From positions 194,060,001 to 194,124,000 of the forward strand of contig OX597814.1 of the NCBI GenBank assembly GCA_951406725.2: a stretch of 64,000 nt of DNA. Direction: 5' to 3'. This document shows, piece after piece, positions 12,596 through 64,000 of the stretch. Under the pieces are notes generated by a model, which worked only from the letters and a program-made list of their open reading frames with translations, searched no databases and was not told the DNA's origin. A program made the translations under genes and the position numbers. The DNA comes from Octopus vulgaris (Eukaryota). Each line of letters opens with the position of its first letter. Position 1 is the first letter of the stretch.

Positions 12596-13641
12596 GTGTA
12601 GTGTAAACGTGTAGCGTAAACATTCAAGCATCGTCACTAATGTTCCAAATCCCACTACATTTCACATGAAATTTTGGTGGGGCTCCAAAGTGGCCTTGGT
12701 ATATAAGTCGAGCTACCTTTTCTTTTACTGTAAATTTTCCGAAAAATTCGACTTGTATTCCAGAAAATATTGTTTGAGGACAACTTGACAATATATTGTG
12801 AAAAAACAATTTGATATTTAAAGTTAAAGAATATAGAGTTTTATGAATATGCGCGCATGGTAAACATGTCTGCTAGTATCATATATAATTTAATTTATTT
12901 CAACAGACTGTATTTTAATTTATGAAATCAACAGCAAAAACTCTGTAACTGCCATTTCTACCATCATTAGTTATAAACAAAAGAGGGAGAGAGAGAGAGC
13001 ATAGTAGTTAATAAATAACGAAAGAATATGCATTACGTAATTACCCTCATTAGCTAATGAATGTGATTGTGTAATTAATGCTATTTTGTCATTCATTAAT
13101 TGATATTATGCTCTGTTCTCTCCTAACGTTTTACTTTAGCACTTAAGTATATTGAGTATATATACATATATATATATATAAATTCTATAATTATAAGCAT
13201 AATTATATATATATATATATATATATATATATAAAATAAATAAATATAAGAGAGTGGTCACTATATATATATATATATATATATATATATATATATATAT
13301 ATATATATATATATACTGGCCTGCTCGCTTAGCCGGCGGGGTGGCGTCATTCGAAGGCTAAAACAATGCGAACGCATTGTGACCAGCGATGTGTAGCAAC
13401 ATCTGATGGTCTGGTCGGTCACGTGATATATATATATACATATATATATATATATATATATACATACATATATATATACATACATACATATACATATACA
13501 TATACATATACATATATATATATATATATATATATATATATATATATATATAATTTTAATCCAAACGGGAAACAAAAAAACAACAACAAGGGAACAATTA
13601 CAGTATTATTATTAATAGGCGCTCAGGAAATGGAAGCAGGG

Positions 13642-13680
13642 AGGTATGACGTTTCGAGCGGAGCTCTTCGTCGGAAACAT
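13642..13680 (-). ncRNA. Minimal type I hammerhead-like motif (U4C core, CCGACGA) in the Penelope pLTR
   Basis: AUGUUU-CCGACGA-A-GAGC ucc GCUC-GAAA-CG-UC-AUAC; weak stem I. Confidence 0.55.
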
Positions 13681-14419
13681 AAAGAAGGAAGAGAGAGGAA
13701 AGAAAGATCCCGGAGCGGGCAACGGAGATAGAGAAAAAAAAAACGGCTGGTGTTAGCAGTAGCACATGGTGAAAGGCGGATGTTTACGATAACAAGAGCA
13801 AAGTGGGTTTTTAAAGGCAAAAGAGTGGAGACAAGGTTGGTAACGCAACAGATGTGTGTGTATGTGTGAGTGTGTGCGTGTGCGTGTGTGTATGTGTGTG
13901 TGTGAGGCGAGGTAAAAAAACAAAAAATATATGTATGTGTTAGTGTGTGCGTCTGTGTGTAGGCGTGTGAGGTAGGGCGAGACGGTGGTCAGCATAGCAG
14001 CAGCATAGCAGACAAAGGTCAGTAGTGAGAAAAGGGAGGAAGGAGGAAGGGAGGGAGGGGAAGGGGTGGGGGCGTATGTAGCGTGCCAGCGTGTGTTGAG
14101 TAGTAGTGTGTGTGTGTGTCCAGTGTCGTGGTAGTATTAGTGGCGAGTAGATTGAATGTGTGTAAGAGTGATGTATATGTTTAAGCAATGTGTGTATATG
14201 TGTGCGCGTGTGTGTAACGAAAAAAAGGGGGGGTTAGGAAAAGGACTCCAGCGGAGGGGAAGATGGAAGAGTGGTCCCGCGGAGACGGGCGTGGGAAAAC
14301 CCAACGACAAGCGACATCCCAGGAACGGGCGGGAGGTCTCGTCGGGTCCAAGGGCGAGGTGCATGCGGGCGCATGCGTGCGCGAACCGGCGCAAACGCGT
14401 GTGTGCGCGAGCCTGCGAG

Positions 14420-15920
14420 TGTGCGCGTACGTATGTGTGCGTGTGGATGTGTGAGTGTGTCTGTGTGTATGTCTGGGTGGCAGTGTGTCCGATGAATGTA
14501 TGTGAGTATGTGTGTATATATGTGTGTGCATAGATGTATGTCCGTGTGTGTGTGTGTGTGTGTATGTGTGTATGAGTGTGTATGTATGTACGTGTGGGTG
14601 TGGGGAAGTGTGTGTATGTGCATGTGTGTGCGCGAACATACAGGTGTGTGAGTGAGTGCGTGTGTGTGTATGTATGTGTGAGTGTGTATGTATGTGTGTG
14701 TAGGATGCATGTATGTGTATGGGTGTATGTATGCGTGTGTGTATGTATGTATGTGTACGTGCGTGTGTGTGTGTGTATGCGTGTAGGTGTGCGCGTGTGC
14801 ATGCGTGCATGTATGTGCGTATGTGTGTGTGTGTGCATGTGTGTGGGTATATATGTGTGTGCGTATATGTGTGTGTATGTGCGTACATGTGTGTGTGTGT
14901 GCATGTGTGTGTGTAGGTGTGTAGGCGTGTGTGTATAGGTGTATGTATGTAAGTATGTATGGGTGTGTCCGTGTATGTGTGTATGTATGTGTGTGTATGT
15001 AGCTGTGTGGGCGTGTGTATATGTGTGTGTATGTAGGTGTGTAGGCGTGTGTATATAGGTGTATGTATGTATGTCTGGGTGTGTCCGTGCATGTTTGTGT
15101 GTGTGTGTGTGTGCATGTGTATGTAGGTGTGTGTGTACGTGTGTAATGTATGTGTGTATGCGTGTGTATGCGTGCGTGTGTGTATGTAGGTGCGTGTGTA
15201 TGTGTGTGGGAGTGTAGGTGTGTGTGTGCGTGTGCGTGTTTATGTTGGTGTGTGCGTATGTGAGTGTGAGTGTATGAGTGTTTGTCATGCATGTGTGTGC
15301 GCGTGCAGGTGAGTGTGTGTGTAAGTATGTGTGTGTGTATGTTTGTGTGAGTGTGTATGTGTGTATGTCTGTGTGTATGTATGTGCGTATAGGAGTATGT
15401 AGGTATGTGTGTGTGTATGTATATGGGTGTATGTATGTGTGTGTGTGTGCATGTGTATAAGTATATGCGTGTGTGCGTATGTGTGTGTATGTGTATGTGT
15501 GTGTGTTTATGTATGTGTGTATGTATGTGTGTAGGCGTGAGTGTGTAGATGTATCTATGTATGGGTGTGTGTCAGTGTGTGTTTGTGTGTGTGTAGGTAG
15601 ATGTGTGTGTCTGAGTGAGGGTATGGCTGTGTAGGTGTGTGTGTGTATGAATGTAAGTGTGTGCGTATACAAGTGTAATGTATGTATGTGGGTGTGTGTG
15701 TGTGTGTGTATGTGTACGTGTGCGTGTGTATGTGTGTGTGTGTATGCGTGTGAGTGTGGGTGTATGGGTGTATGTCTGTGTGTGTGTATGTCTGAAGTGG
15801 GTATGTGTGTGTATGTATGTATGTGTGTGTGTGTGCGGGTATGTGTGTGTGTGTATGTGTGTGTGTGAGTAGGTGTGCGTGTATGTATGTGGGTAGGGAT
15901 GCATGCGAGTGTGTGGGTAT
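14420..15920. repeat. Degenerate (TG/TATG)n low-complexity tract inside the Penelope 3' region
   Basis: Direct reading. Confidence 0.9.
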
Positions 15921-16568
15921 GTATGCAAACATACGCAAGCGCACATCCGAAGCAAGCCCACACACACGAAGCGCGCTCACGCACACAACGCACAAGCAGT
16001 GCAACGCAAGCCCAAAGGGGCCGACCGAGCCCCCAGCGCGCGCCAAGGCGCGCGAGCGCAAAGGCCCTCGAACGCCCCGCTACGCGGGAACCGAGGATCC
16101 ATCAGCCAAAACCGGAAAGCAGAAAAGAGGGGGGGCTGCCTGGATGCAAAAAGGTGTATGTGTGTGTGCATTCAGTGTACGGGTGTGCATGTGTGGGTAT
16201 GTATGTATGTATGTGCCTACATGTATGTGTGCATGTGTGTGTGTGTGAGGTATGTACGTGCGGTGTGTGTGTGTGAGTGTGTGTGTATGTATGTGCGTAT
16301 GTATGTGTGTGTGTATGTGTGTATGTATGTCTGTGTGTGTGTGTGTGTGTAAGTATGTATGCGTGTGTGTATGTATGTGTGTGTGTATGTGCATGTGTGT
16401 CTGTAAGTGTGTGTGATTAAATGTGTGAATGTATGTACGTAGATGGGTCTACGTATGTGTGTGTGTGAACAGGCGTGTGGGAGGTAGGTAGGTGGGTGGG
16501 AGGTAGGTGGGTGGGTGTGTGTGGGTGGTGTGTCCGGAAAAAAAAAAAAAAAAAAAAAAAAAACGGTC

Positions 16569-62635: not shown

Positions 62636-62654
62636 ATATGTCATTCACAGTTTT

Positions 62655-62972
62655 ACAAAGTCAGAAAACAGCACAGCTCCCATGACTTTAGGAAACATTT
62701 TTTCACGCTAAGAGTTGCTGAAGTATGGAACAAACTGCCGGCATCAGTTGTTAGTTGTCGGAGCACTGCATCCTTCAAAACTTCCATGCTTCCTGAGATT
62801 CGCCAACACTACACCTGATTTTCTCCCCTCCATACACACGCAAGCATGTATCTGACTCATACACTGTTCACTTCCCAGACATTTGTACATTACTGCATAT
62901 TCTTTATAAGCACTTTTGACAAGTTGTGGGGCACCTGAGCACTGTATACAATAATTTCATTATTATTATTAT
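62655..62972 (+). mobile_element. CR1-type LINE 3' end with (ATT)n tail (tail also at 33725-33825)
   Basis: RKHFFTLRVAEVWNKLP...FK. Confidence 0.75.
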
Positions 62973-63242
62973 ATTATATTATATTCATCATCATCATCAT
63001 TATCGTTAACGTCCACTTTCCATGCTTGTATGGGTGGGACAGTTTCACAAGAGCCTGTCAGGCAGAAGTCTGCACTAGACTTCCGTGACTGTTTTGGCAG
63101 GATTTTTACAGCTGAATGCCCTTCCTAACACCAACCACTCAACAGAGTGGACTTAGTGCTTTTTACATGGCACAAGCACAGGTGAGGTCAGTTTTGGCAT
63201 GGTTTTTACAGCTGGGTGCCCTTCTGAACACCAACCACTTTA

Positions 63243-63594
63243 ATACAGTTCTATATTTAAGAGAGGTGGAATTATGTACATCATTTACATTATTTACTTT
63301 CGACAGATATTTGTCCTCATCTTGTTTGTTAACATAACATATGCCCACAGGCATATGGCGTAGTGGTTAAGAGCGTGGGCTACTAACCCCAAGATTCCGA
63401 GCTTGATTCCAAGCACTGACCTGAAAAATCATAATAATACTAATAATAATAAGATCGAAAAATACCTTGGGAATGAGAACCCAGGTTTGAAATTTCCCCA
63501 AAACACCTGAAGAATGCTGGAGGTTATATCAGCTGAAACGTTATGTTAACAACAAACAAGATGAGGACAAATATCCGTCGAATGTAAATAATGT
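63243..63594 (+). mobile_element. Fold-back tRNA-headed HHR retroelement, copy 3 (inserted in a family E SINE)
   Basis: 13-bp TSD ACCAACCACTTTA at 63230-63242 and 63595-63607; A box TGGCGTAGTGG at 63356. Confidence 0.85.
63502..63547 (+). ncRNA. Minimal type I hammerhead in the tRNA-headed element
   Basis: AACAC-CUGAAGA-au-GCUG...CAGC-u-GAAA-CG-UU^-AUGUU. Confidence 0.6.
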
Positions 63595-64000
63595 ACCAAC
63601 CACTTTACAGTGTGGACTGGGTGCTTTTAAGTGGCACCTGCACTGACAGGGTCACTAAGTACTTGCAAGACAAAAAATAAAAGAAAAAAAAAACTAAATT
63701 TTGCAAAAGAATATATATCAGTATATCTGTCTTGCATTTCTTATTTCTTTATTGCCCACAAGGGGCTAAACATAGAGGGGACAAACAAGGACAAACAAAG
63801 GGATTAAGTTGATTACAACGACCCCAGTGCGTAACTGGTACTTATTTAATCGACCCCGAAAAGATGAAAGGCAAAGTCGACCTCGGCGGAATTTGAACTC
63901 AGAACGTAAAGACAGATGAAATACCTATTTCTTTTACTACCCACAAGGGGCTAAACACAGAGAGGACAAACAAAGACAGACAAACGGATTAAGTCGATTA

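What the first reader, a model, noticed from the sequence alone, without database searches (positions are those of the whole stretch)
13553..63607. Candidate system: a family of hammerhead-carrying, non-coding fold-back retroelements that parasitise Penelope-like elements
Seen: about 10 type I HHR folds in 64 kb (13642, 18520, 20094, 21282, 28621, 34129/34179, 36610, 55314, 61503, 63502). At least three unrelated short families share one architecture: inverted arms, an extension of about 30-60 nt on one side only, and 12-14 bp TSDs. An uninterrupted Neptune-type RT/GIY-YIG ORF lies in the same window. Established: Penelope-like elements carry minimal type I HHRs in their pLTRs, often insert with an inverted partial copy and a one-sided tail, and are proposed to mobilise non-coding HHR 'retrozymes'. 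Inference: this genome hosts several non-autonomous retrozyme-like lineages that use ribozyme-defined RNA ends and Penelope RT. I know of no description of this for cephalopods but cannot search the literature.
Basis: partly seen in the sequence, partly recalled or inferred. Interest (0 to 1): 0.88.

Follow-up and report, generated by a model that had tools for sequence, protein, structure and literature searches.

The report
Penelope end-repeats plus one retrozyme
The ribozyme-like folds are real, but seven of the eight families are the end-repeats of protein-coding Penelope-type jumping genes, and only one lacks a Penelope gene in every copy examined and is likely a small parasite of a known kind.

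Summary
All listed hammerhead-like folds are present (7 strict hits against 0.5 in shuffles). They belong to eight families. Inverted arms, one-sided tails and TSDs of 10 bp or more recur genome-wide.

The interpretation mostly fails. Seven families (13642, 18520, 20094, 28621, 34129/34179, 36610/61503/63502, 55314), including all three fold-back families, continue upstream in other copies into their own Penelope-like ORF. They are pLTR remnants. Fixed 5' ends lie at the pLTR start, 40-200 nt upstream of the predicted cut, so ribozyme-defined ends are not supported.

Two things remain. (1) 21282 is a 428-nt circularly permuted unit without a Penelope ORF; 13 of 24 copies exceed one unit, which fits a non-LTR retrozyme (known class). 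(2) The 36610 family's pLTR starts with tRNA-type A and B boxes 29 nt after the stop codon, and short copies pile up there, so Pol III may make a SINE-like RNA (untested). This scan noted the tRNA-headed family, and other retrozyme-like units, before on other DNA of this genome.

The parts
13553..18317 (-). Family N: 5'-truncated copy of a very young coding Neptune-like PLE (ORF, microsatellite 3' UTR, pLTR)
   Evidence: 98.7% identical over 4.78 kb to a copy with tandem pLTRs 6.16 kb apart (L151); 40 of 40 scored pLTR hits 99-100% identical
13640..13684 (-). Degenerate hammerhead-like fold (U4->C, weak stem I) in the Neptune 3' pLTR
16569..18317 (-). Open RT + GIY-YIG reading frame lacking its N-terminal part
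   Evidence: (RVT_1 E 7e-4, below cutoff)
18317..18659 (.). Family D fold-back: tail arm 18317-18471 (-), long arm 18471-18659 (+) with hammerhead 18525-18612; pLTR of a coding PLE
   Evidence: ORF-linked copies L115, L116/L155, L117
19532..20160 (+). Family E: 3' end of a very young coding PLE; hammerhead-like fold 20094-20145 with long stem III
   Evidence: 40 scored hits 100% identical; 533-aa ORF in L267, colinear in L407-L409
21089..21429 (-). Family F: partial copy (343 nt) of a 428-nt circularly permuted unit without a Penelope ORF; hammerhead 21281-21355; retrozyme-like
28509..28823 (+). Family B fold-back with 12-bp TSD (28509-28520, 28812-28823), 58-nt tail, G3-C8 hammerhead 28621-28670; pLTR of a coding PLE
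   Evidence: ORF-linked copies
31236..31624 (-).
33975..34305 (.). Family C fold-back, U3-A8 hammerheads on both arms (34162 -, 34182 +), tail on the left arm, no long TSD; pLTR of a coding PLE
   Evidence: ORF-linked L068/L152 and L069/L153
36220..36712 (.). Family A fold-back with 14-bp TSD; tRNA-like head, (AAT)n, hammerhead at 36615, tail on the left arm
55174..55405 (+). Family G: 3' end of a coding PLE, U3-A8 hammerhead-like fold 55314-55350
61441..61816 (.). Family A fold-back with 13-bp TSD; long arm on - strand from the tRNA-like head (A box at 61682) through a decayed hammerhead (61543); short tail arm on +
63230..63607 (.). Family A fold-back with 13-bp TSD; long arm on + from the tRNA-like head through hammerhead 63507; short tail arm on -

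Best explanation
Seven of the eight hammerhead families are the 3' pseudo-LTRs of different protein-coding Penelope-like elements, and the eighth (21282) is a 428-nt circularly permuted unit without a Penelope ORF that is likely copied in trans by a Penelope-like enzyme. Shown: the ORF links, one-sided tails of fixed length, TSDs, 5' ends piled at the pLTR start, and the permutation of F. Inferred, from Frangieh 2024 and Schostak 2008: the RT-endonuclease cuts both target strands about 11-15 nt apart and starts reverse transcription at two fixed internal sites a tail-length apart. The two cDNAs run towards the RNA 5' end and join head to head through microhomology or a small 5' hairpin. Many RNAs likely begin at a promoter at the pLTR start, so most products are 200-280-nt start-to-tail fold-backs that keep the whole ribozyme; a minority reach the ORF. 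The ribozyme likely travels uncut. F is likely copied from a circle or an uncut multimer, because its arms cross the predicted cut and exceed one unit.
For: ORF on the same strand upstream: A 22 of 30 loci chosen for the 70 nt upstream of the head; B 7 of 30 chosen by its most-5' motif, one of them with a different Neptune-like ORF; C 2 of 30 with its own ORF (28, 33); D 3 of 30; E in L267 and 3 of 8 further loci; G 4 of 30; N window copy and L151. Non-TA TSD of 10 bp or more: A 16/30, B 13/30, C 15/30, against 1, 7 and 2 of 150 mismatched pairs. Tail about 24-34 nt in A, on exactly one arm in 19 of 21 two-armed copies; about 58 nt in B and 55 nt in C. Unbiased 5' ends at the pLTR start: A 8 of 18, B 8 of 11, C 7 of 14. 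Short and ORF-linked A copies share the same variants. F: period 428, 13 of 24 sense arms longer than one unit, longest 669 nt, 3' ends mostly at two points 60 nt apart; permutation kept in a 71%-identical relative. The architecture is described in PMC8557442 and PMC3846280; dual internal RT start and dispensable cleavage in PMC11167929.
Against: Most copies of A, B, C, D and G are ORF-less (in the similarity-ranked sets ORF hits were A 1/30, B 0/30, G 0/24), and short copies may themselves be re-copied; the data do not exclude this. Pfam support for the ORFs is below curated cutoffs. The PLE call rests on mutual similarity, C-terminal GIY-YIG-type motifs and architecture; clade names are recalled. 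F has a 130-codon ATG frame (4 of 1000 shuffles reach it; intact in 4 of 8 copies), so 'non-coding' is not clean. Only 24 F loci were seen. Inverted-arm ends near the cut show a weak, non-significant excess (7 of 43 against 3.7).
Confidence: 0.85

Rival explanations
1. Family A's short copies are a SINE in their own right. A tRNA-derived internal Pol III promoter in the pLTR makes a roughly 280-nt RNA; each short copy keeps the promoter and can be re-copied by Penelope enzymes without the coding master.
For: A box at +8 and B box at +53, tRNA geometry (box consensus recalled); A box intact in 27 of 30 copies, B box in 15 of 30; relaxed ARAGORN gives 27 tRNA-like calls over 60 heads, with none in 33. 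Of 11 unbiased copies reaching +17, 9 stop between -6 and +17. Ten to eleven copies in 770 kb of random DNA. A 4-bp hairpin sits at the fold-back centre.
Against: The head lies 29 nt after the stop codon of a coding element. Short and ORF-linked copies share diagnostic variants. B and C show the same 5' pile-up without tRNA boxes. Rfam tRNA did not match in two copies; standard ARAGORN found none in the window.
Confidence: 0.35
2. One reading: A, B and C are independent non-coding retrozyme lineages whose RNA ends are set by the hammerhead.
For: High copy number of ORF-less copies with fixed 5' ends; conserved cores with 3-8 covariation across families; 7 of 43 inverted-arm ends within 6 nt of the cut.
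Against: Each family has ORF-linked copies; fixed ends are not at the cut; the mapped A, B and C loci show fold-backs rather than head-to-tail units, apart from short local repeats such as in L072.
Confidence: 0.07
3. F is not copied from a circle. It is an internally deleted PLE that propagates as a linear partial tandem from its own pLTR promoter.
For: Longest arm seen is 1.56 units; no array of two or more full units in 24 loci; pLTR-like anatomy with an intron-like GT..AG stretch and a 60-nt tail.
Against: 5' ends in the preceding unit are scattered, and one arm (L236) crosses the predicted cut twice; mussel retrozymes of similar size accumulate as circles (PMC7229834, section 14).
Confidence: 0.4

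Closest known systems
Endonuclease-bearing Penelope-like elements (Penelope/Poseidon, Neptune, Nematis, Hydra) and their pLTR insertions (PMC8557442, PMC3846280, PMC11167929)
   Same: RT plus C-terminal GIY-YIG-type ORF, pLTR with hammerhead, inverted 5'-truncated partner, one-sided tail, TSD, palindrome at the inverted junction, TA-microsatellite targets
   Different: Tails reach 55-60 nt or more against the 30-40 described; TSDs mostly 11-15 bp against 8-10 in Adineta; family A's pLTR starts with tRNA-type boxes
Minimal type I hammerheads of metazoan PLEs (Cervera and de la Pena 2014, PMC4209133)
   Same: Palindromic or absent helix III, inserted nucleotide after A9 (A, B, C, N), U3-A8 variant, many single copies, opposite-strand pairs 100-700 bp apart
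   Different: G3-C8 in B; A10.1-U11.1 in F and G; U.U in E; U4->C in N; no inserted nucleotide in D
Animal non-LTR retrozymes (PMC7229834; Li, Clavereau and Pollet 2026, bioRxiv 10.64898/2026.07.22.740005)
   Same: Family F: 428-nt, low-GC, head-to-tail unit with one type I hammerhead and no RT; PLE-type ends
   Different: No array with two full units seen, so it misses Li et al.'s 'active' definition; slightly above the 170-400 nt range; circles and cleavage not shown. A, B, C, D, E, G and N are not of this kind
Schistosoma Sm-alpha SINE-like hammerhead elements (as reviewed in PMC6765202)
   Same: Pol III-type promoter next to a hammerhead (family A)
   Different: A is part of a coding PLE's pLTR, inserts as fold-backs rather than tandem arrays, and keeps promoter and ribozyme together

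Membership tests
EN+ Penelope-like element (families A, B, C, D, E, G, N) | RT and/or C-terminal GIY-YIG ORF upstream of the pLTR on the same strand | tested here: met
   for B only the endonuclease end was reached; Pfam scores below cutoffs
EN+ Penelope-like element (families A, B, C, D, E, G, N) | Inverted 5'-truncated partner with tail on one side | tested here: met
   A 23/30, B 19/30, C 20/30 with an inverted arm; seen but not counted for D, E, G; not seen for N
EN+ Penelope-like element (families A, B, C, D, E, G, N) | Direct pLTRs flanking an ORF | tested here: inconclusive
   Shown for N only (L151)
EN+ Penelope-like element (families A, B, C, D, E, G, N) | Clade by RT phylogeny | not tested
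   No reference set; clade names recalled from motifs; D and E are 43% identical
Non-LTR retrozyme (families A, B, C) | No coding partner sharing the sequence in cis; head-to-tail units | tested here: not met
   ORF-linked copies exist
Non-LTR retrozyme (family F) | Head-to-tail or permuted unit with one type I hammerhead | tested here: met
   Period 428; 13 of 24 arms longer than one unit
Non-LTR retrozyme (family F) | No protein encoded | tested here: inconclusive
   No contiguous PLE ORF in 24 loci or in 8-kb views of 3 of them; a 130-codon frame exists without homologs and is broken in the diverged relative
Non-LTR retrozyme (family F) | At least two consecutive complete units (Li et al. 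criterion) | tested here: not met
   Maximum 1.56 units
Non-LTR retrozyme (family F) | Self-cleavage and circular RNA | not testable with these tools
   Only contigs were available, and they cannot show ends or circles
tRNA-derived SINE (family A) | A and B boxes at tRNA spacing at the 5' end | tested here: met
   5' pile-up
tRNA-derived SINE (family A) | Propagation independent of a coding master | tested here: inconclusive
   Same variants in short and ORF-linked copies, small sample
tRNA-derived SINE (family A) | Pol III transcription | not testable with these tools
   Needs RNA-end or ChIP data

The most novel reading that the evidence does not exclude
A coding Penelope-like element carries a captured tRNA-type Pol III promoter at the start of its own pLTR and so manufactures its own SINE: a 280-nt head-ribozyme-tail RNA, copied tens of thousands of times by the Penelope enzyme, with a small 5' hairpin priming the fold-back. 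Alongside it, the 428-nt F unit is reverse-transcribed around an RNA circle.
Probability: 0.35. Interest if true: 0.65.

Novelty: new variant of a known kind. Interest (0 to 1): 0.36.

Why it matters
Most of this is known Penelope biology, at high density. It warns that short fold-back repeats with hammerheads, which repeat finders may file as SINEs, MITEs or retrozymes, can be pLTR remnants whose ORF shows only in a few percent of copies. The many copies with two fixed 3' ends and piled 5' ends give genomic support to the dual-start model of Penelope reverse transcription. If family A is read by Pol III, it would show how a SINE can arise from a retrotransposon's own end-repeat and use a non-LINE enzyme. 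Families E and N have many near-identical copies and are candidates for studying the mechanism.

Tried and rejected
Rfam scan of the window: mostly microsatellite noise, no hammerhead among the rows shown. The repeat finder was swamped by microsatellites. The relaxed descriptor overlapped its shuffle range.

I first read A as a stand-alone tRNA SINE and B and G as ORF-less. Similarity-ranked searches hid the ORF-linked copies (B 0 of 36, G 0 of 24); searches aimed at the most-5' sequence found them. The idea that short arms start at the cut, suggested by two window copies, was not significant.

A HERO-like non-LTR ORF beside F (L268; name recalled) and PLE ORF pieces beside F in L222 and L239 were rejected as F's master: they are separated by (TA)n or an inverted arm and are not shared among copies. 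L266 has tandem E ends but no PLE ORF between them. The F frame gave no Pfam hit, no homolog of similar length (only 71-228 aa searched) and no usable Atlas hit.

Expression: no RNA holder listed. Contigs cover F and bridge the 428-nt junction in three of eight runs laid, which tandem DNA also gives; no splice joint was listed. Sequence look-ups of earlier findings for B and F returned nothing.

Rows dropped: one A copy cut by a locus edge, one B copy cut by an edge and two distant B relatives, L009, L012 and L158, and duplicate loci.
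Full report
1. Observation. All listed sites hold a type I hammerhead-like fold. A strict descriptor found 7 folds against 0.5 in shuffles; 6 are listed sites, and the rest needed relaxation or are decayed. Genome searches in G000 (2.8 Gb; earlier scan notes call it octopus, which I did not establish) resolve them into eight families: A (36610, 61503, 63502), B (28621), C (34129/34179), D (18520), E (20094), F (21282), G (55314) and N (13642). 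Cores are intact in 23/30, 23/30, 23/30, 29/30, 24/24, 22/24, 23/24 and 30/30 loci (for N this counts the U4->C core). The 3-8 pair covaries across families (C-G in A, D, E, F, N; G-C in B; U-A in C, G), and B and C differ by a compensatory change in stem II. These loci were ranked by similarity to the window copy, so within-family conservation is inflated.

2. Architecture. An inverted arm is present in A 23/30, B 19/30 and C 20/30 loci. Non-TA TSDs of 10 bp or more occur in 16/30, 13/30 and 15/30, against 1, 7 and 2 of 150 mismatched controls; most are 11-15 bp. In A exactly one arm carries the tail in 19 of 21 two-armed copies. Tails are about 24-34 nt (A), 58 (B), 55 (C) and 60 (F). In the window, four of the five A/B/C fold-backs have 12-14-bp TSDs; C at 33975 does not.

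3. Seven families are pLTRs of coding elements. N: the window stretch 13553-18317 matches a copy with direct pLTRs 6.16 kb apart. C: L068 and L069 run from RT and GIY-YIG sequence through a microsatellite UTR into the fold. D: L115, L116/L155 and L117. A: a search with the 70 nt upstream of the head gave a GIY-YIG-type ORF end in 22 of 30 loci, with the stop 29 nt before the head. E: a 533-aa ORF in L267, colinear with the pLTR in 3 of 8 further loci; it has 980 relatives among 8000 scored candidates. B: none in 36 loci from the first two searches, but 7 of 30 loci chosen by the most-5' motif, with an endonuclease 50% identical to C's in six. G: none in 24 ranked loci, 4 of 30 chosen the same way. 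Pfam hits for these ORFs are below cutoff; they match each other. Clade names are recalled, not tested.

4. Where the ends lie. I used 77 random 10-kb stretches plus flanks of other families' loci. For A, 8 of 18 uncensored copies end between -6 and +8 of the tRNA-like +1, one at +17, two extend upstream and seven are shorter; the predicted cut is at +194. For B, 8 of 11 end in a 13-nt window upstream of the fold and one extends into the UTR. For C, 7 of 14 end at the pLTR start and two extend. Inverted-arm 5' ends within 6 nt of the cut are 3/28, 2/9 and 2/6, each P about 0.25, together P about 0.08. So the fixed ends are not ribozyme cuts, although a small excess at the cut is not excluded. 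Random-sample counts in 770 kb were A 10, B 8, C 9, D 5, E 1, F 0, G 0 and N-like 8, which means tens of thousands of copies for A, B and C.

5. Family F. The sequence upstream of the fold is the family's own 3' end, with period 428. Thirteen of 24 sense arms exceed one unit, the longest is 669 nt, and most 3' ends fall at two points 60 nt apart. A 71%-identical relative keeps the permutation and swaps one palindromic loop 3 for another. No contiguous PLE ORF was found. A linear monomer cut at both ends could not give arms that cross the cut, so the template is likely a circle or an uncut multimer; the data do not separate these. A 130-codon frame is longer than 996 of 1000 shuffles but has no homolog and is not kept in the relative.

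6. Family A's head. It has an A box at +8 and a B box at +53, followed by (AAT)n, which looks like a captured short tRNA-derived insert (inference). A 4-bp hairpin just before +1 is present in ORF-linked copies and forms the centre of many fold-backs. Short and ORF-linked copies share the same variants, which favours repeated production from coding masters. Pol III use is plausible but untested, and B and C pile up at their pLTR starts without such boxes.

7. Literature. PMC4209133 (parts 1-2 of 4 read): minimal hammerheads in PLE pLTRs, U3-A8 variant, inserted nucleotide, opposite-strand pairs. PMC8557442 (passages): inverted truncated copies, 30-40-bp tail, cephalopod Naiads. PMC3846280 (passages): inverted pLTRs, tail, 8-10-bp TSDs, junction palindromes. 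PMC11167929 (parts 1-2 of 4): two internal RT starts define the tail, and hammerhead mutants still insert. PMC2377424 (abstract): internal promoter. PMC7229834 (passages and section 14): mussel retrozymes as circles. bioRxiv 10.64898/2026.07.22.740005 (parts 1-3 of 5): retrozymes derive from pLTRs. PMC6765202 (passages): Sm-alpha. PMC13282606 (passages): Penelope-like families in an octopus annotation, with no mention of hammerheads in the main text. Five searches showed no listing that describes cephalopod retrozymes or a tRNA-box pLTR; the library lacks most subscription papers, Repbase and Dfam. Earlier notes of this scan describe family A (mostly as a SINE, once as a pLTR) and other permuted units in this genome; my reading of A and F was written before the first look-up.

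8. Verdict. Observation confirmed. Interpretation partly supported: Penelope mobilisation yes; independent non-coding lineages with ribozyme-set ends no, except probably F. Interest 0.36.

Noticed in passing
window 2343-2415 (-): HDV-like (CPEB3 model) ribozyme match, 29.3 bits, below the gathering score of 35; E 0.001 over the whole window
   Followed up: partly
window 18317-18318: The 5' truncation point of the young Neptune copy abuts the tail end of family D with no (TA)n between them; either a template jump or an insertion with loss of the target
   Followed up: partly
window 6090-6414, 10007-10255, 18664-18958, 20282-20528, 45399-45654, 45663-45889: Further fold-back palindromes without a hit of my hammerhead descriptor; possibly other PLE-type families
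   Followed up: no
   Followed up: partly
window 28013-28423 (-): GIY-YIG-like fragment (Pfam E 5e-4) beside the B insertion but outside its TSD; not B's own endonuclease
   Followed up: partly
L236:1405-1794: 130-codon ATG frame covering most of the F unit; stop codons split 11/2/1 among frames; no homolog; broken in the diverged relative. Unexplained
   Followed up: partly
L268:1568-5005 (-): Open 1146-aa RT ORF with restriction-like endonuclease motifs (HERO-like, name recalled) inserted in an F copy within a large inverted duplication
   Followed up: no
L346: Family B 3' UTR and pLTR joined to a different, Neptune-like ORF: a possible chimera by template switch
   Followed up: no
families B, C, F: Each pLTR has a GT..AG stretch that looks like a retained intron, as known for Penelope; splicing not shown
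   Followed up: no
families E and N: All 40 scored hits are 99-100% identical to the window copy, suggesting very recent activity
   Followed up: partly
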